The notes: generated by a model not told the origin, from the letters alone. A DNA stretch of 64,000 nucleotides from Escherichia coli (GCF_024223415.1 NZ_CP100500.1); one strand, 5' to 3'; positions 14,912 through 30,600 are shown, counted from the first letter of the stretch. Numbers and translations: made by a program.

Positions 14912-14987
14912 CAGGATACAACGCCGCCTGTAATCGTAACCAATTGATTTTTATGATGACGCAAATCTGCGTTATCAGTCCTCAAAG

Positions 14988-17276: not shown

Positions 17277-17321
17277 GTTCTTTTTTCGCCCAATTATTTT
17301 CAAAAAAATTCCCGTGCACAA

Positions 17322-17565
17322 AAATTTGAGCAGGCGGTCGGTTCTGGGCAGGGTCGGGTTCGTCCTGAAAACTCCCCCCCACCCCGTCCGGCTGCCTCAT
17401 CAGCGATTGCGAAAACATTCCATGACCTCGCGGTCACGGTCGGTTAATCGCTTCGCTGTGGTGCGTTTTGTGCGCCCTGTCCTGTTGGCTTTGTGCTCTG
17501 TCTCCTGTGTCTTCCATGTGTCACGCTGCCTTATCAGTCCACGTATCAGCCTGGTTTGCTCCTGT
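17322..17565. other. Candidate cos/packaging site in the HNH-terS intergenic gap
   Basis: 244-bp noncoding gap with G-rich and C-rich tracts (ggcggtcggttctgggcagggtcggg, actcccccccacccc) at the position where HK97-like cos sites lie. Confidence 0.3.
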
Positions 17566-18006
17566 TCAGTCATCATCGCCATACATCCAGTCGTTACGGT
17601 GTGCCGCCCGTTCTTCCTGCTCGCGATACATGCCCGCTTTACGGTTTGCTTTCGTGGCTGGATCTTCCCGTGTGGTCTTACGGTTGTGGCACGTCTGGCA
17701 CAATGCCTGGTGATTCCACTCAGGCCAGAAGAGAACATCATTACCGCCATCGATGGGGATAATGTGATCCACCACCACGGCGGGCGTGTATATTCCTTTT
17801 TCCAGGCAATGCGCACATAACGGGTTTTTACTCAGGTACATAGCGCGGTATTTCTCCCACTGCCTCGTATACCCTCGCTCCCTGCTGCTGCCTCTCCGGC
17901 TGTCCTGCTGCTGGCGTGCGCTGCGTCTGTGCTCCTCACACTTCCCGGACTTCACGCGCCTGTTGCAGCCTGGTTGTGTGCATCGTCTCAATGGTTGCCA
18001 CGGCAT
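17566..18006 (-). CDS. HNH endonuclease (packaging-associated)
   Basis: 146 aa with Cys-His motif (CAHCLEKG...DHIIPIDGGND...ALCQTCHNRKT); sits next to terS as in HK97-like cos phages. Confidence 0.75.
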   Translation of the reverse strand: MPWQPLRRCTQPGCNRRVKSGKCEEHRRSARQQQDSRRGSSRERGYTRQWEKYRAMYLSKNPLCAHCLEKGIYTPAVVVDHIIPIDGGNDVLFWPEWNHQALCQTCHNRKTTREDPATKANRKAGMYREQEERAAHRNDWMYGDDD

Positions 18007-18302
18007 CAGTACACCCCCACATCACGATAAACCGACCAGAGCGCGGAAATCGTCAGGGGAATTTCTTTTGTATCGGTATCGCCAAGCGTTGTCCGGTACT
18101 CGTACAGTTGCGAGATGTACATCAGGCAACCAATTTTTATTGCAGGGGTAAATTCCAGGCCGTCATCAAAACGCCTGCCAATATGCTTCTGGCATACCTC
18201 CAGCGCCGCGCTTATGTATGCCTGAATCAGTGTGTCTTCTGTGTTACCATCTATGCGGCAGTGAAGTTTGGCCTCTTCCAGGGTTATTTTTTCTGCTGTC
18301 AT
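18006..18302 (-). CDS. Head-tail connector protein (gp6-like)
   Basis: 98 aa, MTAEKITLEEAKLHCRIDGNTEDTLIQAYISAALE... typical of phage gp6-like connectors. Confidence 0.55.
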   Translation of the reverse strand: MTAEKITLEEAKLHCRIDGNTEDTLIQAYISAALEVCQKHIGRRFDDGLEFTPAIKIGCLMYISQLYEYRTTLGDTDTKEIPLTISALWSVYRDVGVY

Positions 18303-18637
18303 TTTTCTGTACCCACCTTTGCCAGAATTTCCAGCCGGGTTCTTTTCGCATCAGGTAAGGGGATCCCGATGATATTAAGCGTGCTCCCGGCAAAAGCGCC
18401 GGTAAGCACTTTCAGGCGACTGGCGGCGGATATGTCGCCACGATAGCGAACCCATACCCGAATCGTTGCAGGTGCGGTTTCTGCGCCTGCGGTCAGTAAT
18501 TCCCGTCCGCTGATCCCCTTGACCTCTGCCCAGATGGTTTCCCCTTCCGTCCATATCTGCTGGATCGCACCTGACGGCAGGCGCTGTGTGGTAAATGTCA
18601 TAATCGTCACCCGGTCCCGCATCTTTCCGGCTATCAT
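18299..18637 (-). CDS. Head closure / head-tail adaptor protein
   Basis: 112 aa; size and position (after portal, before HNH) fit the head-tail joining family. Confidence 0.5.
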   Translation of the reverse strand: MIAGKMRDRVTIMTFTTQRLPSGAIQQIWTEGETIWAEVKGISGRELLTAGAETAPATIRVWVRYRGDISAASRLKVLTGAFAGSTLNIIGIPLPDAKRTRLEILAKVGTEK

Positions 18638-19851
18638 TCGTCACCGCCCTTACTGTTCTTGCTGATTGTCACTTCCTGCTTCCATGCCTGGCTGAACTCG
18701 TCGCCACCTTCACGCGGCGGCATTCCCTCACGCTCACGGGCTTCGTTCGGATTGATGATCCCGTTCTTAATCCCTTTCTCATACGTGGCGTAACGTTCGG
18801 TAGGGGTGGCGCGTAATAAATCGGCTGAATCAAACTCAACCAGATAACGGGTACCAGGTACGGGAGAAGCCACCAGCAAAGCAGCCTTGATTTGCTGTTC
18901 GAAGTTCGCCAGCCACGGGCGCATTGTCATGGTCAGAAACGCGCGGCTTGCCTCACTGAAATTGCTGTAGGTGCTGTTGCTGTATTCCTGCAAAAAAATC
19001 GGCGAGACGTTGAACATTCGGGCGATGTCTTCAATGGTAAAGCGACGGGAGGCCAGCCATTCAGCATCCTGATTACTCATGCCCAGCTGCTGATAGCTCA
19101 TACCCCCTTCAAGGATGGGCGTTTTTCCGGCGTTTCTGGCCCCTTTGTAGCGTTCCAGTGCGGCTAATGCCTGTTTGCCCTTCACGCCGTCCAGCCATTC
19201 GCCTGACGTGATAACCCCTGCCGCCATCATGCCATCACGCATCACGCTCGCGCCGTGGCGTTGTTGGGCCAGCCCAAGCCCCAGCGATTCGCGGCAGATG
19301 GTTACAGGTGAGCGCCCCATAAAGCCGTCATCCGTGGAGTAACGAAGGTGGAGAACCTCCCACGGTAAATAGTTGCGGGTGTTTCCGGTGTAGGCGTCAG
19401 TGATGCAGTAGCGCCAGTTATGCTCACCTGTCTGCTCCACGTTCACCGACTGCGGCGGGTAAGGATGTAAAGCCACCGGAAAACCATCACGCCCCCACTG
19501 AATAACCGCATAAGCATTACCGTTTAACAGGCAGTGGCGGATCATCATTCGCTTAAACTGGTAGGGGGTTTGCCATGCGTTCGGGCGCTCGTTGAGGATG
19601 TGATCGACCGGATGAGAATCAAGCCACTCGCGGGCCTCCTTCCCCTTCTCATTGCGTACCAGGTACAGGTAACACGGCATGGTAGCCACCGCCTCAGAGA
19701 TGACCGTCACGGCGTTCATGACGGCGGGCAGTGATTCCGCTGTCCCCGATGATACGTACTCACCCGCCCCCGTGTTCGATGTGCCCGCCAGCGCCATAAA
19801 TTCATCAAGCGTCATGCTGCGCTGCTCTTTTTTTCTTCTGAAAAGCCACAT
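18634..19851 (-). CDS. Portal protein (HK97 family-like)
   Basis: 405 aa; position between protease and connectors; composition typical of HK97-type portal. Confidence 0.8.
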   Translation of the reverse strand: MWLFRRKKEQRSMTLDEFMALAGTSNTGAGEYVSSGTAESLPAVMNAVTVISEAVATMPCYLYLVRNEKGKEAREWLDSHPVDHILNERPNAWQTPYQFKRMMIRHCLLNGNAYAVIQWGRDGFPVALHPYPPQSVNVEQTGEHNWRYCITDAYTGNTRNYLPWEVLHLRYSTDDGFMGRSPVTICRESLGLGLAQQRHGASVMRDGMMAAGVITSGEWLDGVKGKQALAALERYKGARNAGKTPILEGGMSYQQLGMSNQDAEWLASRRFTIEDIARMFNVSPIFLQEYSNSTYSNFSEASRAFLTMTMRPWLANFEQQIKAALLVASPVPGTRYLVEFDSADLLRATPTERYATYEKGIKNGIINPNEAREREGMPPREGGDEFSQAWKQEVTISKNSKGGDE

Positions 19852-19852
19852 A

Positions 19853-20425
19853 TCACACCCCCGCTAAATCCACCCACCAGCGGCGATTATCCGCACGCGG
19901 CATTTTTTCGGGGTGCTGCTCATACAGGGAACGGCGGGCCAGCTCCACGCCGGAATCGGGGTAAGCCGGTACCGATGTAACGGTAATTTCGTACAGTTCC
20001 GCCACCAGCACGGTACGAACGCATGGATCTGTTGTGGTATCCCATACATCCTTACGGGAGCGAAAGCCAAAGCTCATGCCGGATATATCACCGCGTTTAA
20101 CCAGTTCGATAACGTCGCGCCCTGTACTGGTATCCGGTGGGGTCAGTTCAAAGCGTAACCCTGTTTCGTCCTCTTCCAGTTTCAGCGTGCCGGAACGGGT
20201 GCGCCCCAGTAACATGCTGTGGTCATGCTCATACAGGCCGCGAACGTCATTACCCGCCGCAAGCCATTCAGTAAACGCCCCCCGCTGGAATTTTTCGTAA
20301 AACTCACCCCATAACAGTTCTGAAAGCTTATCCCAGCGAACAACGTAGCCCGTCAGCGTACCGGCTCCGCTCGTGGTGATTTCCGATGACCGGATTTCCA
20401 TACTCTTCATAATTTTTTCACCCAT
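19853..20425 (-). CDS. Prohead maturation protease (HK97 gp4-like)
   Basis: 190 aa immediately downstream of the capsid gene. Confidence 0.75.
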   Translation of the reverse strand: MGEKIMKSMEIRSSEITTSGAGTLTGYVVRWDKLSELLWGEFYEKFQRGAFTEWLAAGNDVRGLYEHDHSMLLGRTRSGTLKLEEDETGLRFELTPPDTSTGRDVIELVKRGDISGMSFGFRSRKDVWDTTTDPCVRTVLVAELYEITVTSVPAYPDSGVELARRSLYEQHPEKMPRADNRRWWVDLAGV

Positions 20426-20464
20426 AAAACACTAAAGGGGCTTTTAAGCCCCTTCTGTATGCTG

Positions 20465-21622
20465 TTAATCGTCGTCCTGTGGCAGTTCCAGAATCTTGAT
20501 CGCGTTCGAATCCACCACGCCACCGCCTAAATATTTCTGCGTGAAAATTTTGATGAAGCCCGGCTCTGTGATGTTGTCCGGTCTGGTGCGAACACCTGTT
20601 TCGTGATCAACAATGTAGTAACCGCGTTTGAAGTCACCCAGGGCAATAACGTTATCAGGCATAAACTCCAGATATTCGACCGGAAGGCCCAGCAACGTAT
20701 CAGGATCACCCGCCTGTAAACGGTCGCGCCAGATGTAATCACCGTTCGCGTTCTTCACCTTCTGAAGTTTTGCCGCCGTTGTGGAGTTAACCACCCATAC
20801 CGCGTTCTTGCGGTATTTTTTACGCAATGCAAATTTCAGGTCGATCAGCGGGTCCGCAGATGTCCACGCCAGACCGTGAGCGGGCTTGATAACCTGCAAC
20901 GTTCCGAAGTCGCGTTCTTTGTCGCTCTTCTCTGCACGGGGGACGGATAAAAAGCCTTTTGCTTTTTTGTCACCGTCGCCCACAACCAGATCGCTTTCTT
21001 CGGTTTCCGTGAAGGTGTCGCCAATCTCGGCCGTCAGCCATGAAAGGATGTCCACATCGGAAAAATCCACGATTTCCTGTGTGGTGCGCGGGTACGCATA
21101 GACCGGATACAGCTTAATGCTCACCTCGTTAATCTGCGGGGTGCTGGTCTGTTCGCGTGCCTTACCCTCTTCACCGTGGTTAACGGTCGCACCGCCAGCG
21201 GAAACAAGCTGCTTAAACTCGTTGCTGCTGATTTTCTTCACGGTACAGATGCGGCGCATGGTGGATTCATCCGCCAGCATTCGCATGATTTCGGTGTTCA
21301 GTTCGGGGATAACGGTATAACCACCATCAGCGGGAACGCCTGTACTTAATGCGCGGGTTTCACCTGTCAGAATGTAGTTGCGTAGTTCTGCGGGGTCAGT
21401 GGTCTGACTGCTTTTACCTGGCTTGCTGCGCTCTTCGTCTGCAATGGCTTCAAGGCGGGAAATGTCTTTATCGAGGGATTCAGCTTTAGCGCGTAATTCA
21501 TCAAATTTTGCGCCCTCAGCATCGTTAAGACTGCGGTTTTCTTTTTCCGCGTTCTCCAGCATGTCGCGCATCTGATTTTTAATGGCGGTTTTCTGCTGGC
21601 GTAATTCGATTATTCTCGGCAT
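20465..21622 (-). CDS. Major capsid protein, HK97 fold, with N-terminal coiled-coil scaffold (delta) domain
   Basis: ATG at 21622 gives MPRIIELRQQKTAIKNQMRDMLENAE... (delta domain) then capsid body; the longer ORF to 21667 would read through a terminator hairpin. Confidence 0.85.
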   Translation of the reverse strand: MPRIIELRQQKTAIKNQMRDMLENAEKENRSLNDAEGAKFDELRAKAESLDKDISRLEAIADEERSKPGKSSQTTDPAELRNYILTGETRALSTGVPADGGYTVIPELNTEIMRMLADESTMRRICTVKKISSNEFKQLVSAGGATVNHGEEGKAREQTSTPQINEVSIKLYPVYAYPRTTQEIVDFSDVDILSWLTAEIGDTFTETEESDLVVGDGDKKAKGFLSVPRAEKSDKERDFGTLQVIKPAHGLAWTSADPLIDLKFALRKKYRKNAVWVVNSTTAAKLQKVKNANGDYIWRDRLQAGDPDTLLGLPVEYLEFMPDNVIALGDFKRGYYIVDHETGVRTRPDNITEPGFIKIFTQKYLGGGVVDSNAIKILELPQDDD

Positions 21623-21660
21623 AAAAAAAAGTCCTGGGGTTAAGTAAGGAACTCCAGGAC
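21623..21660 (-). terminator. Intrinsic terminator on the minus strand directly abutting the capsid start codon
   Basis: Minus strand reads gtcctgg-(16 nt)-ccaggac followed by TTTTTTTT, then ATG of the capsid gene. Confidence 0.45.
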
Positions 21661-21837
21661 GCGGCAAAAACTCAACCGTTTTTCATAAGGAAATCAGCAA
21701 TCGCACCGATCGTTTTCCCGCCTGGTAATGAATATTGGCGAGCACATTAACAGGCGGGAAAGTGGCCCCAGCGTCCTGGCACCACGGGCGAGAATAATCA
21801 TGATTCAGTTCGAGTAAAATATGCCGATCCGCTCAGT

Positions 21838-21896
21838 GAACAACCTGGAACAACCACGAACAAATAATTTACAAAACCTGAAAAAATAAATAAACT
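21838..21896 (+). promoter_or_regulatory. Promoter of the 157-aa gene with phased upstream repeats: GAACAA x3 at 10-bp spacing, then -35 TTTACA, 17-bp spacer, -10 TAAACT
   Basis: GAACAA at 21838, 21848, 21858; TTTACA 21868-21873; TAAACT 21891-21896; AGGAGG SD at 21924 and ATG at 21938. Confidence 0.45.
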
Positions 21897-21937
21897 GTTC
21901 CGTACATTTTCTGCTCGTTAATCAGGAGGAACGAACT

Positions 21938-22411
21938 ATGTCAGAAAATGAACTGAAAAAAGCAATGTTCATTCAGCAACGATTGCAGATTCTCCACCTT
22001 GGTAAACACTATGATGAGTTCAGTGATTCTTACGTGTATGCCTGGGAGGCAGATGTTTATCCTTTCTTGCAGGATGGCGACGGAAGTATTCCTGCTCGCC
22101 CACATGAAATTTACGAAGAGTTTTTCGGCACATCTAAAAACAAAGCCAAAAAGATATACGATCGTCTGTGCAAAGCCTGGCACGACCAGGAGGCACTCAC
22201 ATTCTATAAACTAGAAAGTGAATATGGTGTAACAAGTAGCAGCATGCACAGATGGACACGAAGTGATTTACTTCACATCTGCCGCTATCTGTATCTTGAG
22301 GGGTGTTTCGATAAAGATTTCTGGGAAACATTACTGGAAAACGGAAAATGCCCAAGCGAAGCACTTTACCTTAGCGATGAATTTAATCGCGATACAGAGA
22401 TCGACTTCTAA
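21938..22411 (+). CDS. Hypothetical protein (157 aa), stand-alone opposite-strand cargo gene
   Basis: Strong SD and promoter, own bidirectional terminator; only plus-strand gene inside the structural/regulatory part of the island; no recognisable domain. Confidence 0.65.
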   Translation: MSENELKKAMFIQQRLQILHLGKHYDEFSDSYVYAWEADVYPFLQDGDGSIPARPHEIYEEFFGTSKNKAKKIYDRLCKAWHDQEALTFYKLESEYGVTSSSMHRWTRSDLLHICRYLYLEGCFDKDFWETLLENGKCPSEALYLSDEFNRDTEIDF

Positions 22412-22448
22412 AAAAATGGCCTGGAAAATACCAGGCCATTATTATTCT
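22411..22448. terminator. Bidirectional intrinsic terminator between convergent genes
   Basis: atggcctgg-aaaata-ccaggccat flanked by an A-run on one side and T-rich sequence on the other. Confidence 0.55.
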
Positions 22449-22695
22449 ACCGTTTCACGGGATCACGCATTCTGCGCCTTATTTTCCACAGATATTCGAT
22501 CATCGCTTCCACCTGCTCACGGTTGGTTGCGAAAATTTCCCCGGTCAGTGAGCTACGCAGAAAATCATGATGATCCACAAAAAATAACGCATCGGAAGAA
22601 AGCAGCCGGAGATATTTTTTTGCTGTCGTGCTTTCCAGATCATCAAAATCATGAAGCTTTTTATGTTGCTGGACTTCTTCAAATGTCACTGGCAT
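22447..22695 (-). CDS. Hypothetical protein (about 82 aa)
   Basis: Internal ATG (MPVTFEEVQQHKKLHDF...) downstream of the PerC-like gene. Confidence 0.45.
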   Translation of the reverse strand: MPVTFEEVQQHKKLHDFDDLESTTAKKYLRLLSSDALFFVDHHDFLRSSLTGEIFATNREQVEAMIEYLWKIRRRMRDPVKR

Positions 22696-22740
22696 GTTTC
22701 CTCCTGCTACCACGATACCAGAAACAGTTAACAACCGTTA

Positions 22741-23022
22741 TCAATTATCCCCTTTTTTAGGGTAGTTCCTGAACATCTCACCGCCAGGCTTCTGTAAGCC
22801 CATCCCGGTATGTGTGCGGTTTATGGCCTCTTTCAGTATTCCGAAATTATCCGGTATGACTGGTGGGCGTGCTGCCTTACGGATACATTCCGCGCGACGC
22901 TTTGCCACTTGTTCGCGCTCCTTGTCAGTGCTCACCAGCCACATAACATCAGCCCATCGCGCGGCCGCCCTCCGGTAAAATCCTTTCGCCTCCAGTTCCT
23001 CCGCTATCCGGTCATGTACCAT
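22741..23022 (-). CDS. PerC-family-like transcriptional regulator (tentative)
   Basis: About 93 aa from internal ATG: MVHDRIAEELEAKGFYRRAAARWADVMW...; the EAxGxxRRAAxxW motif resembles PerC-type activators. Confidence 0.4.
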   Translation of the reverse strand: MVHDRIAEELEAKGFYRRAAARWADVMWLVSTDKEREQVAKRRAECIRKAARPPVIPDNFGILKEAINRTHTGMGLQKPGGEMFRNYPKKGDN

Positions 23023-23032
23023 CGTCACCCCC

Positions 23033-23443
23033 TCAGAACGGAATATCATCACCGTAAGGGTCATCGCCTCCCGCTGGTGGCTGATTACCCTGTGTGCCTG
23101 TGGTTTTGCGTCTGTTCCCACCAGGACGTGCCGCACGCGCACTGATTACGCTGTCTGCGATAACCTGCCAGCCCTGCCGCGTTTCCCCGTTCTGTCCGGT
23201 CCACTGGCTGACCTGCATCGTGCCGGATACGCTGGCAACGTCGCCTTTTTGATGTTTAGCCAGAAAGTCGGCCTGTTTGCCAAATGCGATGACCGATAAC
23301 CATAACGTCGCCTGTCCGTCCTGTGCCTGGCCGCATGGTAAAGATACCGCCATACGCGCCAGCGTCATCGGTGTACCCTTACTGGTCTGTTTTACCTGCG
23401 GGTCGTCCACCAGCCGCCCGTAAGCTGCAATTTGTGCTGTCAT
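23033..23443 (-). CDS. ssb: Single-stranded DNA-binding protein
   Basis: 136 aa with OB-fold-like core and acidic C-terminal tail ending DDIPF. Confidence 0.85.
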   Translation of the reverse strand: MTAQIAAYGRLVDDPQVKQTSKGTPMTLARMAVSLPCGQAQDGQATLWLSVIAFGKQADFLAKHQKGDVASVSGTMQVSQWTGQNGETRQGWQVIADSVISARAARPGGNRRKTTGTQGNQPPAGGDDPYGDDIPF

Positions 23444-23452
23444 ATTGCCACC

Positions 23453-23758
23453 TCAGTGAAGCGATCCGGCGTTGTTCTTTTTCATCTCTTCCATCATTTT
23501 TTCAGTGAGCATTACGCACTGAAAACCCATGTTTTTGATGTCTACGGGTTTCATGCCTTTGTCAGTGGATATCACAGGCAGAATATCCTGATACACATCG
23601 CCGCCAGGGTAACTAAGCACACAAAGCGCCCATGATGCCACGGGTGAGGATCCTTGGTCTGTTTCAACCCACCAGCCTGGTGTAGCTGCGCTTATTTGCA
23701 GAATCGTGATCCGTCCGTTGTGCTTGTAAAATTTTTCACCACATTTTGGTTCGCTCAT
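23453..23758 (-). CDS. Hypothetical protein (101 aa)
   Basis: ORF in operon context between ssb and the ori region. Confidence 0.4.
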   Translation of the reverse strand: MSEPKCGEKFYKHNGRITILQISAATPGWWVETDQGSSPVASWALCVLSYPGGDVYQDILPVISTDKGMKPVDIKNMGFQCVMLTEKMMEEMKKNNAGSLH

Positions 23759-24006
23759 GCTTCCACCTCTCCGGTTTTAACGTTGATGGTTGTCACCTGT
23801 TCCGCTCCGGCAATCTCCCGTTCTGTCAGCGTGGCAAAATTTGCCGCTACCGTTGTCATGAATGCGCTTATCAGTTCGGGATGTGCTTTCGCGTATCCTT
23901 CTCCCGCGTGGCGGTCTATCGTTCTGATTGCCACCTTTAAGGCGTGCTCTGTCATGTCTAACGCTTTATATTTTGGCGCTGTCTTATCTCTGGTTTTTCT
24001 GTTCAT
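23755..24006 (-). CDS. Hypothetical protein (start uncertain)
   Basis: ORF 23755-24036 trimmed to an internal ATG because its 5' end runs into the iteron array. Confidence 0.3.
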   Translation of the reverse strand: MNRKTRDKTAPKYKALDMTEHALKVAIRTIDRHAGEGYAKAHPELISAFMTTVAANFATLTEREIAGAEQVTTINVKTGEVEA

Positions 24007-24225
24007 TCCCCACCACTCCCCACTTTTGCTCCCCACTTTTTAAATTCCCCACTTGCTCCCCACCTCGTTTTTTGAGTGAATCTAATGCTTTGTTTTTCAT
24101 TGCGTTTTTTGCTCCCCACTTTTTTGGATGTATACAGGTGGGAAAGTGGGGAATTATGTTTCAATTTTGTTAAATTCCCCACTCTCCCCACTTTTACTAC
24201 CCACTTTTTACAGTGGGTAAACATC
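24005..24225. repeat. Iteron array (at least 8 copies of tccccactttt-like units in both orientations around an AT-rich core); putative replication origin
   Basis: Repeats ctccccactttt, gctccccacttttt, attccccact and inverted gtgggaaagtgggg, immediately 3' of the primase/helicase gene. Confidence 0.6.
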
Positions 24226-25614
24226 ATCCCCATCGACACAAATCACGCCGTCTTTTTCCAGCTTGTACAGCCAGCGCCGGAAGTGCTTCATCTCATACCC
24301 CAGCTTTTTCATATCGTCGCGGAGAAGGGCGATAGTGCATGGCTCTTTGTGTGCCGTCCGCGTTCTGATGCACTGCCATAGCGCGGCGTGATTCTCCGAT
24401 TTGTTGCCTGCTTCCTCGATGCGCTCCAGTTCAGCAGGGGCGCGGGGAACGTCAATCACCACCATAGACACAATCTCTTCGCCATCTGTATCGGTGAACA
24501 CCTCCACGCTTTTAAGGTCGTATGCACTCTCTTTTGGCTCCTCTGCGTCCTTCATCTTCGTACACGCCGCCACCAGTGCTGTAACGTCTGAATTTTCCCG
24601 GCTGATTCGGTACTCTGCATCAAGCGCGGCACGGAATGCGCTGGAACCACGCGCCCCCTTTGTTTCATCCTTGCCGGAATGGTGAACCACCAGCACCGTG
24701 GCCCCTGTGGCCTGCTTTATCGCGTCACACCCCTGGATAAATGCGCCCATATCACGGGAATCATTTTCATCATTCCCACCAAAGCAACGGGCCAGTGTGT
24801 CGATCACAATCAGCCGCACATTTTCGCCCGTTCTGCTCTTAACAAGTCCGGCAGTCCTGATAACCTGCTCCACATAGTCAGGCGATGCAGGGAAAACAGG
24901 CGCGTTAATGATGCACAAATCTGTAACCACCTTGTCGTGGGTTATCTCCCACGCCTTAACGCGGCGTTTTACGCCCATGCTGCCTTCACCAGCGATATAG
25001 ATAACCGCCCCCTTACTTACCCTGCGGCCTCCCCATGCCATACCTGTGGCAACATGGCACGACCAGGAAATGGCGAGGAACGATTTATAAGAACCGCTGG
25101 CCCCGTAGGTGCTGCATAATGACTCAGCCGGAATAAGCCCCTTAATTACGTAGCTTTGCTGCGCGTCGAATCCCTCAGAACCCCATGAGATGGGAAGCGT
25201 GATTTTTCGCTTTCCGCCATTCATGACCAGGCTTTCCCCTCTCTCCCATGTTTCCCGTAGTCGTGGTAGCTGGTCGCTCCAGTCCTCCAGCAGTTCGAAA
25301 TTTTCAGAAAGTAGCCGCGCCTCCTGGACTCCGGCGATCGCCAGTTTTGTGGCAATGGTCAGCATCTGCATATCGTCCAGGTTTCCGGCGCGTATGACCT
25401 TTGCCCTGTATCGTCCTTCATCAACAATCTGTAAGTTGTCCAGTTCGCTTAACTGATAACGGCCCAGGTAAACCGGAGGGATGGGATCGCCTGCTTTTTT
25501 GGCCTGTGCAATCATGTAATGTTCTGCAAAGGAGTGAGCATTATCACCCGCAAAAATAACCGCCTCAGTGTGTTTATCTTTCGGTAACAGTTTTACGTTC
25601 GGTGCAAGTTTCAT
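24208..25614 (-). CDS. Replication protein: primase-like N-terminus plus RecA/DnaB-like AAA ATPase (pri-rep)
   Basis: 468 aa; Walker A-like IYIAGEGSMGVKRR and Walker B-like LIVIDTLARCFG, C-terminal winged-helix-like tail. Confidence 0.75.
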   Translation of the reverse strand: MKLAPNVKLLPKDKHTEAVIFAGDNAHSFAEHYMIAQAKKAGDPIPPVYLGRYQLSELDNLQIVDEGRYRAKVIRAGNLDDMQMLTIATKLAIAGVQEARLLSENFELLEDWSDQLPRLRETWERGESLVMNGGKRKITLPISWGSEGFDAQQSYVIKGLIPAESLCSTYGASGSYKSFLAISWSCHVATGMAWGGRRVSKGAVIYIAGEGSMGVKRRVKAWEITHDKVVTDLCIINAPVFPASPDYVEQVIRTAGLVKSRTGENVRLIVIDTLARCFGGNDENDSRDMGAFIQGCDAIKQATGATVLVVHHSGKDETKGARGSSAFRAALDAEYRISRENSDVTALVAACTKMKDAEEPKESAYDLKSVEVFTDTDGEEIVSMVVIDVPRAPAELERIEEAGNKSENHAALWQCIRTRTAHKEPCTIALLRDDMKKLGYEMKHFRRWLYKLEKDGVICVDGDDVYPL

Positions 25615-25898
25615 TTCTTACCCCCTGCGACCAGCATTTCACGGATTTTGCGGATATAACTTGCAGCACGTTTCTGATTAACGGCTTTACGATGGCCCAC
25701 CAGCGTGAAATCACGCCGGAACTGATAAACAGGCATAACGCAGTCATATTCGTAGCCTTCACGGCGGTAAGTTACGCGACGTTCCTCCACGCTTTTAATT
25801 GTTACCGTGCCGCCGTAGTTATCTTTGAAAATATCGCCGGGGCGGATTTCAGGCCGAGCGGGGCCGCTGGCAGTAAAGCCAGAATATTTAAGTTTCAT
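25611..25898 (-). CDS. Hypothetical protein (95 aa)
   Basis: Stop overlaps the pri-rep start; basic protein. Confidence 0.4.
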   Translation of the reverse strand: MKLKYSGFTASGPARPEIRPGDIFKDNYGGTVTIKSVEERRVTYRREGYEYDCVMPVYQFRRDFTLVGHRKAVNQKRAASYIRKIREMLVAGGKK

Positions 25899-25903
25899 TA
25901 TTT

Positions 25904-26137
25904 TTATTCTCCGGTGTGCTGTTCTTTATATCTGTCGTGCAATAGGTCTATTTCCTGCAACTCTGTTATTACAGGTTCAAGGAGAGTTATCAGAGATTTA
26001 ATAATCCGCGCATTCTTTACATCACGCTCATTATCGCCAAATGTATCTGGATACATTTGCAATATTTCGTACATACCTTCAGCGTAAGCAATGGCACTAA
26101 ATGCGCGGTCTATTGTTTCGAGGTAAATATCACGCAT
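25904..26137 (-). CDS. Hypothetical protein (77 aa)
   Basis: Compactly spaced ORF in the same operon. Confidence 0.4.
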   Translation of the reverse strand: MRDIYLETIDRAFSAIAYAEGMYEILQMYPDTFGDNERDVKNARIIKSLITLLEPVITELQEIDLLHDRYKEQHTGE

Positions 26138-26138
26138 A

Positions 26139-26387
26139 TTAATCCCCGTCCGTCGTTTTTCTTAAAATAACCTCTGTCACGAAATCAGCATAATCGGCGG
26201 CGATATTCAGTACATCAAGCCCCGTTGATTTATATTCTCTCGTGGAAAGTAAGAAAAAAGCCGCTCTAATAAGCTCTGGCATTGACGAAAGCGCATCAGC
26301 CGCATCATCAGGAACGCCGGAAAATTCCTGTTTCAGGGAATTAAAACGATCATCACGCATAACCCCCCCCATTTTCACAATCAGCAA
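26139..26387 (-). CDS. Hypothetical protein (82 aa)
   Basis: Compactly spaced ORF in the same operon. Confidence 0.35.
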   Translation of the reverse strand: MLIVKMGGVMRDDRFNSLKQEFSGVPDDAADALSSMPELIRAAFFLLSTREYKSTGLDVLNIAADYADFVTEVILRKTTDGD

Positions 26388-26634
26388 TCAGGATGGCTTT
26401 GGCCTCATTCAGTGCCATATCAGCGGTAAGCTGTGCGTAGGCCAGCAAATGCGGGATTATTGCCCCTGTATATTCCGTCTCTCTGGTAATGTGTTTTTCT
26501 GCGGTTGCTGCCGTGCATGAAATATCAATCAGCGCGTGCATCAGCGTTTTGATGGCTTCGGCGGCTGCGTCCGGACGGGTGTTATTGCACATGGCACACC
26601 TCCTGACGGATACGGGCGGCGAATACAGCGACAC
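26353..26634 (-). CDS. Hypothetical protein (start uncertain)
   Basis: ORF overlapping its neighbours; probable start at an internal ATG. Confidence 0.3.
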   Translation of the reverse strand: MSLYSPPVSVRRCAMCNNTRPDAAAEAIKTLMHALIDISCTAATAEKHITRETEYTGAIIPHLLAYAQLTADMALNEAKAILIADCENGGGYA

Positions 26635-26780
26635 AACCGGACGGGCAACGGTTACGCGCTTCGCGTTCCGTCCAGGCGGTCACGTGGATAATTTGAGATT
26701 CTCCGGCACTCAGTGCCAGAAAACGCCACACAAAGGCGGTTTGTGTGTGCGCTAGTCGTGGGGTATGCTGTGTTCCAGCC
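26582..26780 (-). CDS. Hypothetical small protein (about 66 aa), first gene of the leftward early operon
   Basis: C-terminal part of spurious 267-aa ORF, from ATG near 26780: MAGTQHTPRLAHTQTAFVWRF...; divergent from the RHH gene. Confidence 0.35.
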
Positions 26781-26867
26781 ATAATCGTTACTCCTGTTAA
26801 CGGTTTGGTTAGACGCCCTGCATGTGTTACAGCACTGCGGGGCGTTGTCTTTTTAACGGCTTTCGTG

Positions 26868-26917
26868 ATAGGGTGTACACCTATCAAGCAAAAAAATAAC
26901 GCTATAGGTGTACACAT
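26868..26917. promoter_or_regulatory. Two operator-like palindromes centred on GTGTACAC in the divergent regulatory region
   Basis: atagggtgtacacctat (26868-26884) and tataggtgtacacat (26903-26917); the second overlaps the RHH start codon. Confidence 0.45.
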
Positions 26918-27110
26918 GTCAACAGTTATTAAGCGAGATAAAAAACCAAAGGGAACAGGAAAAGCCCCCCCATTCCATATGCGAATAGCTCCAGAACTGA
27001 AAGAGCAGTTTGATAATGAGGCCAGCAATGATGGGGTAAGCCTAGCCAACTGGCTTAAAGAGTTGGGACGCAGTGAACTGAAGCGGCGCGGTATAGAACC
27101 CAAAGGTTGA
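26916..27110 (+). CDS. Ribbon-helix-helix (Arc/MetJ-like) DNA-binding protein; candidate island repressor
   Basis: About 64 aa from internal ATG: MSTVIKRDKKPKGTGKAPPFHMRIAPELKEQFDNEASNDGVSLANWLKELG; only regulator on the plus strand, divergent from the early operon. Confidence 0.5.
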   Translation: MSTVIKRDKKPKGTGKAPPFHMRIAPELKEQFDNEASNDGVSLANWLKELGRSELKRRGIEPKG

Positions 27111-27143
27111 TAGCCCACCAGCAAGCCAGGACACTGATCACAT

Positions 27144-27171
27144 TGGCCACCGTGACAGGTGGCCTTTTCTT
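27144..27171 (+). terminator. Intrinsic terminator after the RHH gene
   Basis: ggccacc-gtgaca-ggtggcc followed by ttttcttt. Confidence 0.5.
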
Positions 27172-27437
27172 TGCCCGTTATCCGGCAATTGTGGCGCTTC
27201 GCCACACGGTTGATATAATCCCACTGCTCATATTCATTTTTTGCGCAGCAGGTAAATTGTTCAGAAAGGCGGCTCCTTATCGGGGCCGCTTTTTTTATGC
27301 CTGAAAAACCGCGATTTTGTTGTTTTTCAGTTTCACAAGGCCGAACGAAGCCCCGCCCCTGTTCCGGCGTATATCCAGTCTTCATGGTTAAATCTCTGTA
27401 TTAGTGGATGGGTGGCGGCTGTGTGCCGCCAGTCTTT

Positions 27438-27626
27438 TTAGTGAACTGCCTCGCAGCTTTCCTTCCATGCCAGAACTTCGGATAAAGACCAGCCAACGGA
27501 ACGACCGCCCAGCTTACGCCGTGATGGGAATTGTCCGGCCTTTTCCAGGCGGTAGCGGCATGAGCGGCTAAGCCCTGTTAGCTTTTCGCATTCTTTTTCA
27601 CGTATAAAACGATCAGTGCTTAACAC
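27438..27626 (-). CDS. alpA: AlpA-family phage transcriptional regulator / excisionase-like
   Basis: 62 aa, LTGLSRSCRYRLEKAGQFPSRRKLGGRSVGWSLSEVLAW matches the AlpA/Xis HTH pattern; adjacent to int. Confidence 0.75.
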   Translation of the reverse strand: MLSTDRFIREKECEKLTGLSRSCRYRLEKAGQFPSRRKLGGRSVGWSLSEVLAWKESCEAVH

Positions 27627-27908
27627 TATTGCCCCCTTTCGTTTCTTAAAGAGTTATTTCGTGTTCTATTGCGTTGGTATGTGTCTGATTGTGTCAGGGT
27701 GATTCAGAGTTGGCAAATGTTGATGGCGGGTATTTTACAGAAACGGGGTGATTTTAATAAAAAACATTTTAATTCAGTATTATGCAAAGGCATAAAATCT
27801 CGTTTCATGCCTTTTTTCTCACTATTTAAAGCGTTATTCGCTAATGTATAAAAAACCAGTTGAGCATTAAAAATCAGCAACTTATAAATCTGTATATTTT
27901 TTGGCCTC

Positions 27909-27954
27909 TTGTTCGTGGTTGTTTCACGTTGTTGCGTATTGTTGCACGTTGTAT
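27909..27954 (-). promoter_or_regulatory. Five 10-bp-phased direct repeats (TTGTT on plus strand = AACAA on minus) between int and alpA
   Basis: TTGT motifs start at 27909, 27919, 27929, 27939, 27949. Confidence 0.5.
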
Positions 27955-28000
27955 CTGTGCACTTATCCAGTATGCGCATACTGAAAAAACACGAAAAAAA

Positions 28001-29248
28001 TTATTTTCTTCTGGCTACTGGTAGCGTGGTTACGTTTTCATGTGCTCCCGCCAGTATCTCCAACCGCTCCACCCACATATCCAGCGCATTGCGTTTCGCA
28101 TCCAGATAACGGGAATGATTATAAACTCGCTGCATTCCTGGCATCTGGTGGCCTGTAAGCTGCTCCACGACATGCGGATCAACGCCTAAATCGTTCAGCA
28201 TGGTTGTAAAGGTGCGCCGGATGTCATGCAGTGACCAGTGAGGGTGTTTAAGCCTCCTGTGCACTAATCTGCCGTACTGCGACACGCTGGTTTCCTGTTT
28301 CACTTCCCCCAGCAATAAGTCCGTGTGCCTGTTCTGCTCCACCAGCTGCGTGACGAACGGCAGTATCGCTTCCGGTATGGGCCGGAATATGGCTACCTTC
28401 GTTTTGCTGTGCTCCTTCGGAACGGTCCAGAGCATTTCGGTAAAATCCCACTCGCCGATCTCCGATAACCTCAGTTCTACTGTCCTGCATCCGAAGACAA
28501 TCAGGAGGCGGATTAGTGCGACGTAGTAAGGGGAAAATATTTTTTTGTCCAGTGCCTGCAATAATTCGCCAAGTTCTTTGTTACTTAAGACACGCTGACT
28601 TATATCCGGTTTTTTCCCAACGTCAGCCACACTCATATCATCAAGAACGTTGCTGATTGCATAGCGCCGCTTCCGGCAGAACTTAAGCGCCTGTTTGCAT
28701 GTCTGTAGCAGGAACCCGGCGGAAACAGGGGCTTGCTTTGCCACCCGATCAAAACAGGCCAGCCAGTGCCGTAGCTCGCATTTATCCAGCGGCATAGGGC
28801 CAATGTGCTGTATTACGTGATTATTTAGCCGCTTTTTCAGTGGGTCATAATCCACACGGTTTTCCTTTGCGTACGACTCAAGCCAGTAGGTGAGCGCATC
28901 GCCAACCGTTACAGGCTTTAACGCTTCCTGTACGGTGTAATTCATCTCATGACGTGGATTTTTCCCCTCAGCCAGCCATGCGCGACACTGGGCGGCTTTT
29001 TCCCTGGCTGATTTCAGGCTCAGATCAGGATAATTTCCCAGCTTAATGCGTTCCGGTGGTGCGCCCCTTCCCGTTCCGGCCCTGTAAGTGAAATACCAGG
29101 TTAAAAGGCCGCTGGTTGAATGCCTGACGGTCAGGTTTCCACCGTCATTAAGAAAGGCTGTTTTTTGGGCGGGTGTGCCGTTGATTTTCCTTAGCTGTGT
29201 ATCACTCAGTTTGTTAAGTGCTCTGCGCATAATTTTGATTCCGGTCAT
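28001..29248 (-). CDS. int: Tyrosine-type site-specific integrase (P4-like)
   Basis: About 415 aa; N-terminal arm-binding-like region, catalytic HDIRRTF...HQMPGMQRVYNHSRY; start codon (GTG 29251 or ATG 29248/29230) abuts the 26-bp repeat. Confidence 0.9.
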   Translation of the reverse strand: MTGIKIMRRALNKLSDTQLRKINGTPAQKTAFLNDGGNLTVRHSTSGLLTWYFTYRAGTGRGAPPERIKLGNYPDLSLKSAREKAAQCRAWLAEGKNPRHEMNYTVQEALKPVTVGDALTYWLESYAKENRVDYDPLKKRLNNHVIQHIGPMPLDKCELRHWLACFDRVAKQAPVSAGFLLQTCKQALKFCRKRRYAISNVLDDMSVADVGKKPDISQRVLSNKELGELLQALDKKIFSPYYVALIRLLIVFGCRTVELRLSEIGEWDFTEMLWTVPKEHSKTKVAIFRPIPEAILPFVTQLVEQNRHTDLLLGEVKQETSVSQYGRLVHRRLKHPHWSLHDIRRTFTTMLNDLGVDPHVVEQLTGHQMPGMQRVYNHSRYLDAKRNALDMWVERLEILAGAHENVTTLPVARRK

Positions 29249-29251
29249 CAC

Positions 29252-29277
29252 AATTAACTACACCATTAACTACACCG
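29252..29277. repeat. Inner 26-bp direct repeat, right copy
   Basis: Exact match to 14122-14147. Confidence 0.8.
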
Positions 29278-29283
29278 ATCGTT

Positions 29284-29319
29284 GCACAAAGGGCTACAAC
29301 GTGAAACAAGCTGGAACAA
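29284..29319 (+). promoter_or_regulatory. 10-bp-phased NNACAA repeats (GCACAA, CTACAA, AAACAA, GAACAA) upstream of int on the opposite strand
   Basis: Motifs start at 29284, 29294, 29304, 29314; homologous to the array at 14164-14189. Confidence 0.4.
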
Positions 29320-29411: not shown

Positions 29412-29478
29412 ATACTTCACGCATTACGTTAAGCATCCGTTATAATCGGTTGCAGATACCAGCCTGTGGATGCTTAAC

Positions 29479-30600
29479 ATGGAATACCAACTCACTCTTA
29501 ACTGGCCCGATTTTCTTGAACGTCACTGGCAGAAACGCCCGGTGGTGTTAAAACGCGGCTTTAATAATTTTATTGACCCGATCTCTCCAGACGAGTTGGC
29601 GGGTCTGGCGATGGAAAGCGAAGTCGACAGTCGACTGGTCAGTCACCAGGATGGCAAATGGCAGGTCAGCCACGGTCCGTTCGAAAGCTACGATCATCTC
29701 GGTGAAACCAACTGGTCATTACTGGTACAGGCAGTGAACCACTGGCATGAGCCGACCGCCGCGCTGATGCGACCGTTCCGTGAACTACCGGACTGGCGTA
29801 TTGATGATCTGATGATCTCTTTTTCTGTACCTGGCGGCGGCGTCGGCCCGCATCTCGATCAGTACGACGTGTTTATCATTCAGGGTACCGGACGTCGTCG
29901 CTGGCGAGTGGGCGAAAAGCTGCAAATGAAACAGCACTGTCCGCACCCTGATCTGTTACAGGTCGATCCGTTCGAAGCCATCATCGATGAAGAGCTGGAG
30001 CCTGGCGATATTCTTTATATTCCGCCAGGATTCCCGCATGAAGGCTACGCGCTGGAAAATGCGATGAACTATTCCGTGGGTTTTCGCGCGCCAAATACGC
30101 GGGAATTAATTAGCGGATTTGCCGATTATGTGCTGCAACGTGAACTGGGCGGCAACTACTACAGCGATCCGGATGTTCCACCTCGCGCTCATCCTGCGGA
30201 CGTTCTGCCGCAAGAGATGGATAAACTGCGTGAGATGATGCTCGAATTGATCAACCAGCCGGAACACTTTAAGCAATGGTTTGGCGAGTTTATATCCCAG
30301 TCACGTCATGAACTGGATATCGCTCCGCCAGAGCCGCCTTATCAGCCGGATGAAATCTACGATGCGCTGAAACAAGGTGATGTGCTGGTGCGCCTGGGTG
30401 GTCTGCGCGTATTGCGCATTGGCGACGACGTGTATGCCAATGGTGAGAAGATCGATTCCCCGCACCGTCCGGCACTGGATGCACTCGCCAGCAACATTGC
30501 GCTGACTGCGGAGAATTTTGGCGATGCGCTGGAAGATCCGTCATTCCTCGCGATGCTCGCGGCGCTGGTCAATAGCGGGTATTGGTTCTTCGAAGGGTAA
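29479..30600 (+). CDS. roxA: Ribosomal protein uL16 arginine hydroxylase RoxA (YcfD), cupin/JmjC-like
   Basis: 373 aa from internal ATG, MEYQLTLNWPDFLERHWQKRP... Confidence 0.9.
   Translation: MEYQLTLNWPDFLERHWQKRPVVLKRGFNNFIDPISPDELAGLAMESEVDSRLVSHQDGKWQVSHGPFESYDHLGETNWSLLVQAVNHWHEPTAALMRPFRELPDWRIDDLMISFSVPGGGVGPHLDQYDVFIIQGTGRRRWRVGEKLQMKQHCPHPDLLQVDPFEAIIDEELEPGDILYIPPGFPHEGYALENAMNYSVGFRAPNTRELISGFADYVLQRELGGNYYSDPDVPPRAHPADVLPQEMDKLREMMLELINQPEHFKQWFGEFISQSRHELDIAPPEPPYQPDEIYDALKQGDVLVRLGGLRVLRIGDDVYANGEKIDSPHRPALDALASNIALTAENFGDALEDPSFLAMLAALVNSGYWFFEG

What the first reader, a model, noticed from the sequence alone, without database searches (positions are those of the whole stretch)
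24005..24225. Iteron-type replication origin immediately 3' of the primase-helicase gene
At least eight copies of an 11-bp unit (consensus tccccactttt) occur in both orientations on either side of an AT-rich 40-bp core, overlapping the last codons of the replication gene. Iterons flanking an AT-rich spacer next to the initiator gene is the standard arrangement for satellite and plasmid origins. The ORFs predicted inside this stretch are repeat artefacts.
Basis: partly seen in the sequence, partly recalled or inferred. Interest (0 to 1): 0.45.

Follow-up and report, generated by a model that had tools for sequence, protein, structure and literature searches.

The report
Replication origin of a phage satellite
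The 200-base gap after the replication helicase gene of an E. coli phage satellite holds eleven short repeats. They are almost certainly the docking sites where that helicase starts copying the satellite, which is an ordinary layout for such elements, but relatives reveal which amino acid reads which base.

Summary
The core CCCAC occurs 12 times in 24005-24225, against 0.34 expected (P about 3e-15).

The repeats fill the 201-bp gap (24007-24207) between a RepA-family helicase gene (24208-25614, minus strand) and the next gene (start codon at 24006). The host element is a roughly 15-kb capsid-forming PICI-like satellite between phoQ and roxA.

Comparison with 80 or so related loci supports a Rep-bound origin:
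- The site layout is conserved across genera.
- The core sequence changes at all sites together, and it tracks one residue at the start of the recognition helix of Rep's predicted C-terminal winged-helix domain: His444 with GTGGG, Asn with GTGAG, Lys with TGGGGG, Ser with GTGCGG. The expected pairing holds in 67 of 75 loci.
- A recombination breakpoint at about residue 396 keeps the C-terminal domain and the repeats together.

- Rep has no primase domain.
- The copy overlapping the last codons does not co-vary and is probably just coding sequence.
- Only four copies match the full 11-mer.

Iterons around an AT-rich spacer 3' of rep were described for SaPIs, and for E. coli PICIs in 2018, with this Rep type listed. 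So this is a new member of a known kind. No replication test exists for this Rep type.

The parts
24007..24208 (-). Origin of replication (inferred). It is the whole intergenic gap and holds 11 co-varying iterons plus two AT-rich spacers. On the rep-sense strand the layout is: stop codon, F F F, AT1, R R, F, AT2, F F F F F, then the ATG of the next gene (F = AAAAGTGGGGA, R = its complement).
   Evidence: enrichment; conserved layout and concerted change; co-variation with Rep residue 444.
24007..24067 (+). Rep-distal iteron cluster. Five copies have TCCCCAC on the + strand, starting at 24007, 24017, 24030, 24046 and 24057 (spacing 10, 13, 16, 11 bp). The last copy abuts the ATG (24006) of the next gene.
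   Evidence: The same positions hold GTGAG-type or other cores in relatives.
24064..24112 (.). AT-rich spacer AT2 (49 bp, 33% GC). It is the spacer whose AT-richness is kept across genera and iteron classes, so it is the most likely site of strand opening.
24113..24123 (+). Solitary iteron (TCCCCACTTTT), present in nearly all relatives about 25 bp from the inverted pair.
24129..24136 (.). Palindrome TGTATACA between the solitary iteron and the inverted pair. TGTATA is invariant in the six aligned sequences (window plus five E. coli relatives). Role unknown.
24134..24152 (-). Two overlapping-register inverted iterons (TTCCCACCTGT and TCCCCACTTTC, read on the - strand).
   Evidence: both switch C to T in the relatives whose Rep has Asn.
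24153..24175 (.). AT-rich spacer AT1 (23 bp, 13% GC). It contains the least stable 25-mer of the locus (top 0.5% of the 64-kb window). Its AT-richness is not conserved in all relatives.
24176..24208 (+). Rep-proximal iteron cluster with three copies (24176, 24185, 24198). The last is TACCCACTTTT and its final base is the first base of the rep stop codon.
24209..24219 (-). Iteron look-alike (TACCCACTGTA) inside the last rep codons (Y-P-L-stop). It does not co-vary with the other sites, so it is probably not a functional iteron.
   Evidence: L003 keeps CCCAC here although its iterons are CTCAC, and L002 has CCCGC although its iterons are CCCAC.
24208..25614 (-). rep: a 468-aa RepA-family helicase-initiator. 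Residues 1-125 form an N-terminal alpha/beta domain of unknown function. Residues about 146-390 form a RecA-like SF4-type helicase core (AAA_25). Residues about 396-468 form a winged-helix domain. No primase domain is present.
24211..24429 (-). Codons for the C-terminal winged-helix domain (residues 396-468). The predicted recognition helix is residues 445-454. His444 (codon 24283-24285) is the residue that co-varies with iteron base 4.
   Evidence: fold; co-variation; recombination breakpoint at about 24410-24440.
23755..24006 (-). First gene after the origin (83 aa from the ATG at 24006; phrog_1231, function unknown). Homology to elements with other rep-ori cassettes ends at its start codon.
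23033..23443 (-). Single-stranded DNA-binding protein gene, part of the satellite's replication module.

Best explanation
The gap 24007-24208 is the vegetative replication origin of a capsid-forming PICI-type phage satellite integrated between phoQ and roxA.

Proposed mechanism (all steps here are inferred, none is shown):
1. After induction, the satellite's Rep protein recognises the eleven AAAAGTGGGGA sites. Rep is a RecA-fold, RSF1010-RepA-like hexameric helicase that carries its own C-terminal winged-helix domain. The recognition helix of that domain reads the sites, with His444 reading the fourth core base (GTG-G-GG).
2. Binding of many winged helices on both sides of the AT-rich spacer concentrates Rep there. 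The conserved 49-bp spacer at 24064-24112 is the more likely candidate. The 23-bp spacer at 24153-24175 is the alternative.
3. The spacer opens and the helicase loads itself, without DnaA or a separate loader.
4. The satellite's SSB and host primase and polymerase do the rest.

What is shown here: the repeats and their enrichment; the conserved layout; the concerted change of all sites together with one Rep residue; the co-inheritance of Rep's C-terminal domain and the array; and the predicted fold.

What is inferred: actual binding, the melting site, self-loading, and replication itself.
For: Enrichment. There are 12 core copies against 0.34 expected, and at most 3 in any other 221-bp stretch of the window.

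Context. The array sits exactly between the rep stop codon and the next start codon, inside a PICI gene set: int, alpA, icd-like, DUF4222, rep, ssb, perC, HK97-type capsid, protease, portal, HNH, TerS, TerL.

Spread. Related sequence is present in 1050 of 5426 complete E. coli genomes. It is absent from phage records and nearly absent from plasmid records.

Conserved layout. The order FF(F), R(R), F, AT-rich 45-55 bp, FF..F is kept in Escherichia, Xenorhabdus, Kluyvera, Kosakonia, Morganella, Serratia, Pectobacterium, Erwinia and Photorhabdus, although the core sequence differs.

Concerted change. 11 of 12 window sites switch G to A together between relatives.

Co-variation with the K-X-F-x-R-W-L motif of Rep:
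- His with GTGGG: 7 of 9 loci.
- Asn with GTGAG: 24 of 27 loci.
- Lys with TGGGGG: 31 of 34 loci.
- Ser with GTGCGG: 5 of 5 loci.
- No locus has a strong array of the wrong type.

Near-isogenic pair. L002 and L003 differ in the winged helix only by H444N and N454G, yet differ at every iteron.

Recombination. The breakpoint at residue about 396 makes the C-terminal domain plus array one inherited block.

Helicase core. It matches RSF1010 RepA and T7 gp4.

Published precedent. [quoted passage not shown] The EcCICFT073 rep-ori fragment replicates autonomously (PMC6092414, PMC9371898). A neighbouring cassette type has its own iterons in the same place (TGTCTACC in CFT073, TGCGGGTTAT with the DUF927 Rep).
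Against: - No replication or binding experiment exists for this Rep type. The published functional test used the unrelated D5-type Rep of EcCICFT073.
- EcCIO42, which carries this Rep type, gave no transfer in the 2018 assays.
- The conserved spacer is only moderately AT-rich (33% GC).
- The sites flanking that spacer point the same way, unlike the opposed orientation described for SaPIs.
- No primase is encoded in this Rep, so priming is unexplained.
- Eight of 75 relatives show no clear array of the expected type (L016, L027, L044, L052, L068-L071).
- The His/Asn/Lys/Ser association rests on few independent switches, because many loci are closely related.
Confidence: 0.85

Rival explanations
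1. The repeats are Rep (or other protein) operator sites. They would regulate transcription of the downstream ssb-perC-packaging operon, or autoregulate rep. The true origin would lie elsewhere in the element.
For: The array lies within a unidirectional operon and ends 1 bp before the next start codon, so bound protein would block read-through. Co-variation with Rep shows binding, not replication.
Against: No sigma-70-like promoter or terminator is detected in 23700-24500. No other cluster of the core exists in the 64-kb window. The layout, with its AT-rich spacers, matches origins shown to work in SaPIs and EcCICFT073. Regulation and origin function are not mutually exclusive.
Confidence: 0.07
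2. The array is an incompatibility or copy-control iteron set (handcuffing sites), separate from the site where DNA synthesis actually starts.
For: Some iteron plasmids carry extra iteron clusters used only for control. E. coli genomes hold up to four related copies, so cross-talk control is plausible.
Against: There is only one cluster, it includes AT-rich spacers, and its position is the canonical PICI origin position.
Confidence: 0.04
3. The repeats are a packaging signal (cos or pac recognition sites for the satellite's TerS/TerL/HNH machinery).
For: The element encodes its own terminase and HNH nuclease. Terminase small subunits often bind repeated sites.
Against: The repeats track Rep's C-terminal residue, not the packaging genes. 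L002 has the same iterons as the window but a different downstream and packaging module. The array is 7 kb from terS.
Confidence: 0.02
4. The repeats are a chance low-complexity stretch or the remains of a decayed gene.
For: Three mechanical ORFs cross the stretch.
Against: P is about 3e-15 for the enrichment. The positions are conserved while the core changes in concert. The ORFs match no family and are not conserved. Rfam finds nothing above threshold.
Confidence: 0.01

Closest known systems
E. coli PICI rep-ori modules of the RepA-helicase type (for example EcCIO42, listed as one of four 'Pri-Rep' alleles in Fillol-Salom et al. 2018, PMC6092414)
   Same: Same Rep family (466-468 aa, AAA_25 only), same gene neighbours (DUF4222 upstream; phrog_1231, ssb and perC downstream), and a 200-bp gap after rep in the same place. 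The same layout of sites was shown for other E. coli relatives carrying this Rep type.
   Different: I did not inspect the EcCIO42 gap itself. Its iterons are probably GTGAG-type, because it shares its downstream gene product (WP_000192401.1) with L007, whose Rep has Asn444 and whose iterons are GTGAG-type. The window has His444 and GTGGGGA. The window's element also carries a full capsid and terminase module, whereas EcCIO42 is an 11-kb classical PICI. The window's rep is a mosaic: its body resembles strain 504239, and its C-terminal domain plus origin resemble O26 strain 11368.
EcCICFT073 pri-rep-ori (experimentally shown to replicate; PMC6092414)
   Same: Same chromosomal site (next to roxA), same gene order, and origin in the gap 3' of rep with short iterons in both orientations around AT-rich DNA. 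The first 125 or so residues of the two Reps are 46% identical.
   Different: The rest of the CFT073 Rep is unrelated (D5_N, DUF5906 SF3-type helicase, Pox_D5). Its iteron is TGTCTACC, and its gap is 288 bp.
SaPI Rep and ori of Staphylococcus aureus (Ubeda et al.; Qiao et al. 2022, PMC9371898)
   Same: Self-contained initiator-helicase with a C-terminal winged helix that reads 5-6-nt iterons. There are 6-12 iterons immediately downstream of rep, with an AT-rich centre. No DnaA is involved.
   Different: SaPI Reps are AAA+/SF3-type 3'-5' helicases, whereas this one has a RecA-fold SF4-type core. The SaPI iterons on the two sides are described as opposed. Here the sites on both sides of the conserved spacer point the same way, and the inverted pair sits inside the rep-proximal half.
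Satellite phage P4 alpha protein with ori and crr
   Same: A satellite replicon in which one protein combines a helicase with a C-terminal winged-helix origin-binding domain that reads short repeated octamers (my own knowledge; also mentioned in PMC6092414).
   Different: P4 alpha has a Zn-ribbon/Toprim primase and an SF3 helicase, and it needs a second cis element (crr). Here there is no primase domain, the helicase is SF4-type, and there is no second repeat cluster in the window.
RSF1010 (IncQ) RepA helicase
   Same: It is the only solved structure found by sequence (1g8y, E 4e-5) and among the best fold matches to the helicase core.
   Different: RSF1010 RepA has no DNA-binding domain of its own. 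A separate RepC binds 20-bp iterons and RepB' primes. Here the winged helix is fused to the helicase.

Membership tests
PICI/SaPI-type replication origin | Lies immediately 3' of the replication initiator gene, in the same transcription direction | tested here: met
   The array fills 24007-24207, between the rep stop codon (24208-24210) and the next ATG (24006).
PICI/SaPI-type replication origin | Six to twelve short (5-8 nt) iterons in two sets flanking an AT-rich region | tested here: met
   There are 11 co-varying sites: 6 on the rep side and 5 on the far side of a 49-bp spacer of 33% GC. The layout is conserved in relatives.
PICI/SaPI-type replication origin | Iterons on the two sides of the AT-rich region point in opposite directions (stated for SaPIs in PMC9371898) | tested here: inconclusive
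   Both orientations occur. Across the conserved spacer (24064-24112) the flanking sites share one orientation. Opposed sites flank the smaller spacer 24153-24175.
PICI/SaPI-type replication origin | The cognate Rep is a helicase whose C-terminal winged helix reads the iterons | tested here: met
PICI/SaPI-type replication origin | The rep-ori fragment drives autonomous replication, and deleting ori abolishes it | not testable with these tools
   Shown only for the unrelated EcCICFT073 Rep type (PMC6092414).
Capsid-forming PICI (host element) | About 15 kb; int, alpA and rep plus its own HK97-type capsid, protease, portal, connector, HNH, TerS and TerL; no tail or lysis genes | tested here: met
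   Gene content comes from ORFs, Pfam, PHROGs and NCBIfam, and from RefSeq annotation of a 99.8% identical copy. It has the same site and layout as Sakai Sp7, the EcCIEDL933 type.
Classical iteron-plasmid oriV (pPS10, RK2, F, R6K type) | Tandem 17-22-bp iterons in regular helical phase | tested here: not met
   The conserved unit is 7-11 nt, the spacing is 9-16 bp and irregular, and both orientations occur.
Classical iteron-plasmid oriV (pPS10, RK2, F, R6K type) | DnaA box(es) beside the iterons, and a dedicated WH1-WH2 Rep initiator separate from the helicase | tested here: not met
   There is no TTWTNCACA, GATC or IHF consensus in 23991-24240. Rep is itself a helicase.
Primase-helicase (T7 gp4 / P4 alpha-like bifunctional protein) | Zn-ribbon and Toprim (or AEP) primase domain N-terminal to the helicase | tested here: not met
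   Pfam finds nothing in residues 1-141 even at E = 10. Homologues L035 and L011 do have Zn_Ribbon_Prim and Toprim_3. A profile comparison of the N-domain with their Toprim region gave probability 1.5%.
P4-type ori/crr replicon | A second cis-acting repeat cluster (crr) some kilobases from ori | tested here: not met
   No other 221-bp stretch of the 64-kb window holds more than 3 core copies.

The most novel reading that the evidence does not exclude
A single residue at the N-terminal cap of the Rep recognition helix would set which iteron is read: position 444, with His for G, Asn for A, Lys for an extra G, and Ser for C. Recombination would move the 73-residue winged helix together with its 200-bp array as a cassette. 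This would create orthogonal replicon specificities that let several satellites coexist in one E. coli cell without cross-initiation. In addition, this would be a RecA-fold (SF4, DnaB-like) helicase that recognises its own origin and loads itself. That combination is known so far mainly for SF3/AAA+ initiators.
Probability: 0.45. Interest if true: 0.5.

Novelty: new member of a known kind. Interest (0 to 1): 0.3.

Why it matters
The region is unannotated in RefSeq, although related sequence occurs in about one in five complete E. coli genomes. Marking it as an origin helps define satellite replicons and their compatibility.

The natural series of matched Rep residue and iteron variants gives a ready-made, directly testable recognition code for a helicase-linked winged helix. 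The near-isogenic His/Asn pair that differs at every site is the clearest case. The variants could also serve as orthogonal origin-initiator pairs.

The finding does not change the general picture of how phage satellites replicate.

Tried and rejected
- Phage records: no match to 23400-25700.
- Plasmid records: two hits in atypical records only. The module is therefore satellite-specific and not a plasmid origin.
- Rfam: only sub-threshold eukaryotic families, so the non-coding RNA reading is rejected.
- Promoter and terminator scan: nothing found.
- DnaA box, GATC and IHF consensus: none found.
- Pfam on the isolated N- and C-terminal pieces of Rep, even at E = 10: nothing meaningful.
- Profile comparison of the N-terminal domain with the Toprim region of primase-bearing homologues: probability 1.5%. 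This is so despite a suggestive 'VIFAGDNA' / 'IILAGDND' resemblance. I therefore do not call the N-domain a degenerate Toprim.
- The EDL933 and ED1a genome accessions were not in the collection. Sakai Sp7 was used instead and turned out to carry a different (DUF927) Rep.
- Figure 2a of PMC6092414, which lists iteron sequences, is not held as text. I therefore could not check whether this exact iteron has been printed before.

Full report
**1. What is in the sequence**

The stretch 24005-24225 lies on the minus-strand operon of a mobile element. The 468-codon replication gene ends with its stop codon at 24208-24210. The next gene starts at the ATG at 24006: RefSeq annotation of a 99.8% identical copy and the PHROG alignment both start at Met11 of the mechanical ORF. 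The 201-bp gap between them is packed with the motif TCCCCAC(TTTT), which reads AAAAGTGGGGA on the rep-sense strand.

- TCCCCAC occurs 9 times here and 6 times in the other 63.8 kb.
- The 5-mer core occurs 12 times against 0.34 expected (P = 3e-15).
- No other 221-bp stretch of the window has more than 3 copies.
- Nine copies lie on the + strand and three on the - strand.
- Two spacers are AT-rich: 24064-24112 (49 bp, 33% GC) and 24153-24175 (23 bp, 13% GC). The second contains the least stable 25-mer of the locus.

Only four copies match the whole 11-mer.

**2. The surroundings**

The element runs from about 14.9 kb to 29.3 kb, between phoQ (12581-14041) and roxA (29470-30600). Reading along the minus strand it encodes:
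- a tyrosine integrase, AlpA and Icd-like proteins;
- a DUF4222 protein, then Rep, two small proteins, SSB and PerC;
- an HK97-type major capsid protein, prohead protease, portal and head-closure/connector proteins;
- HNH, TerS and TerL.

It has no tail or lysis genes. This is the gene set of a capsid-forming PICI. It sits at the same chromosomal site and has the same layout as Sakai Sp7, the EcCIEDL933 type (bioRxiv 10.1101/2022.09.08.507074). Sequence related to the origin region is found in 1050 of 5426 complete E. coli genomes. It is absent from 50,697 phage records and appears in only two odd 'plasmid' records.

**3. The replication protein**

Pfam finds only AAA_25 (residues 146-317). 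The only solved relative by sequence is the RSF1010 RepA helicase, and the fold of the core matches RepA, T7 gp4 helicase and RadA/Rad51. There is no primase domain. Homologues in Serratia and Xenorhabdus carry Zn_Ribbon_Prim and Toprim_3 in front of the same helicase, and others have no N-terminal extension at all.

The window's N-terminal 125 residues are instead 46% identical to the N-terminus of the otherwise unrelated D5-type Rep of EcCICFT073. A profile comparison with the Toprim region was not significant.

**4. Comparative evidence that the repeats are Rep binding sites**

I fetched five distinct E. coli relatives plus a duplicate of one (75-91% identical in this region). One scan of species-representative genomes added 80 more loci.

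- *Conserved layout.* On the rep-sense strand the order is stop codon; two or three forward sites; one or two reversed sites; about 25 bp; one forward site; an AT-rich spacer of 45-55 bp; then three to five forward sites. This order holds in Escherichia, Xenorhabdus, Kluyvera, Kosakonia, Morganella, Serratia, Pectobacterium, Erwinia and Photorhabdus.
- *Concerted change.* The core differs between lineages and changes at all sites together. In the E. coli alignment, 11 of the 12 window sites read GTGGG in three sequences and GTGAG in the other three.
- *Link to one residue.* The core type follows residue X of the motif K-X-F-x-R-W-L at the start of the predicted recognition helix, which is His444 in the window. 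The counts are in the table below. No locus carries a strong array of the wrong type.

| Residue X | Core type | Loci matching |
|---|---|---|
| His | GTGGG | 7 of 9 |
| Asn | GTGAG | 24 of 27 |
| Lys | TGGGGG | 31 of 34 |
| Ser | GTGCGG | 5 of 5 |

- *A near-isogenic pair.* The O26 strain 11368 and strain SCU-111 alleles differ within the winged helix only by H444N and N454G, yet differ at every iteron.
- *Co-inheritance.* The window's rep is a mosaic. From 24410 to 25700 it is 80-100% identical to strain 504239. From 24000 to 24410 it follows O26 strain 11368. The breakpoint falls at about residue 396, so the winged helix and its array are inherited as one block.
- *Cassette boundary.* In elements with other Rep types, homology to the window stops at the start codon of the downstream gene. 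The gap then holds different iterons: TGTCTACC with the D5-type Rep of CFT073, and TGCGGGTTAT with the DUF927 Rep.
- *Distant relatives.* Proteobacterial homologues also have their own 7-mers repeated 7-11 times after rep.

**5. A correction from the same data**

The copy at 24209-24219, inside the codons Tyr-Pro-Leu-stop, does not follow the rule. SCU-111 keeps CCCAC there although its iterons are CTCAC. O26 has CCCGC there although its iterons are CCCAC. It is best read as coding sequence that resembles an iteron. The functional array is then 11 sites, and it touches rep only through one base of the stop codon.

**6. The ORFs inside the stretch**

The three mechanical ORFs (23928-24173 +, 24003-24239 -, 24076-24381 +) match no Pfam or PHROG family. 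They are open in only some relatives, and RefSeq does not annotate them in any copy examined.

**7. How it most likely works**

The model follows the SaPI Rep system. There, a helicase with a C-terminal winged helix binds 6-12 iterons just downstream of its gene, melts the AT-rich centre without ATP, and loads itself (PMC9371898). It also follows the E. coli PICI origins described in 2018, where the EcCICFT073 rep-ori fragment maintained a plasmid and the deletion of rep or ori did not (PMC6092414).

Here I infer the following sequence:
1. Rep docks on the eleven sites through its winged helices.
2. It opens one of the two AT-rich spacers. The 49-bp one is the spacer conserved across genera. 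The 23-bp one is the easier to melt in this copy.
3. It assembles as a ring on the exposed strand, helped by the satellite's own SSB.

The absence of DnaA boxes, GATC clusters and IHF sites fits independence from the host initiator. Priming is unexplained, because this allele has no primase domain. Binding, melting, loading and replication are all inferred, and none is shown.

**8. Rival readings**

- *Operator array for the downstream operon.* This cannot be excluded and may coexist with origin function. However, no promoter or terminator is detected, and there is no other candidate origin cluster.
- *Packaging site.* This is unlikely. The repeats follow Rep, not the packaging genes, which differ between the window and O26 while the iterons stay the same.
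- *Non-coding RNA or chance repeat.* Both are rejected.

**9. Comparison with what is known**

The arrangement belongs to the PICI/SaPI origin type, not to classical iteron plasmids. The cores are short, the spacing is irregular (9-16 bp), both orientations occur, there is no DnaA box, and the initiator is itself the helicase.

The RepA-family Rep type is already listed as one of four 'Pri-Rep' alleles of E. coli PICIs (EcCIO42). The 2018 paper also shows iteron maps for 'several E. coli PICIs', in a figure I could not read.

Differences from SaPIs are the helicase superfamily (RecA-fold SF4-type against AAA+/SF3-type) and the orientation pattern around the conserved spacer.

I found no description in the searched literature of two things: the residue-to-base co-variation, and the co-inheritance of the winged helix and array as a recombination cassette.

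**10. Verdict**

The gene label should be corrected to helicase-initiator, not primase-helicase, and the number of functional sites refined to eleven. This is a new member of a known kind of origin. It is of modest interest in itself, with a useful, testable specificity code as a by-product.

Noticed in passing
window 25240-25614 (Rep residues 1-125); L010 8242-8640: The N-terminal domain of this RepA-type helicase is 46% identical to the N-terminus of the otherwise unrelated D5/SF3-type Rep of EcCICFT073. It is a portable alpha/beta domain shared by different PICI initiators. It has no Pfam match and no significant similarity to Toprim. Its function is unknown; it may recruit host primase or replisome, or sense the helper phage.
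   Followed up: partly
L035 2002-4038, L011 1918-4023, L028 2659-4026, L066 419-1465: The same helicase plus winged-helix module occurs with at least four different N-termini: Zn-ribbon plus Toprim primase (about 680-700 aa), an unrelated 130-aa domain (about 455 aa), the E. coli PICI domain (about 468 aa), or none (about 350 aa). The downstream iteron layout is kept in all of them.
   Followed up: partly
window 14900-29300; L092 (Sakai Sp7); L010 (CFT073): The roxA-phoQ site holds different satellites in different strains: a classical PICI in CFT073, and capsid-forming PICIs in Sakai and in this window. These carry three different rep-ori cassettes (D5-type, DUF927-type, RepA-type) on otherwise similar backbones.
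   Followed up: partly
L042 (Trabulsiella guamensis), 3' of rep: A Rep with a hybrid helix start (T-S-K-H-F: the extra Ser of the Lys class, but with His) sits next to an array that mixes GTGGGGA (6 copies) and GTGGGGG (4 copies). This may be an intermediate specificity.
   Followed up: no
L068, L069, L070, L071, L052: These divergent homologues (Klebsiella sp., Tatumella, Sodalis, an Enterobacterales MAG, Gilliamella) show no clear array of the expected core within 300 bp after rep. Their origin may use a different core or lie elsewhere.
   Followed up: no
L084, L086, L088, L090 (Nitrospinia, Alpha-, Beta- and other proteobacterial MAGs): Distant AAA_25 helicase homologues (28-38% identity) each have their own 7-mer repeated 7-11 times just after the gene (AGCGACA, CCGGACA, CGGGACA, CCCTGAC). 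The helicase-then-iterons arrangement therefore seems old and widespread.
   Followed up: no
window 21938-22411 (+): This is the only plus-strand gene inside the satellite (157 aa, annotated as hypothetical in the GF60 copy). It lies between the capsid gene and perC, a typical position for an accessory or anti-phage cargo gene.
   Followed up: no
window 24129-24136: The palindrome TGTATACA lies between the solitary iteron and the inverted pair. TGTATA is invariant in the six aligned sequences (window plus five E. coli relatives), although it is not part of an iteron. Its role is unknown.
   Followed up: no
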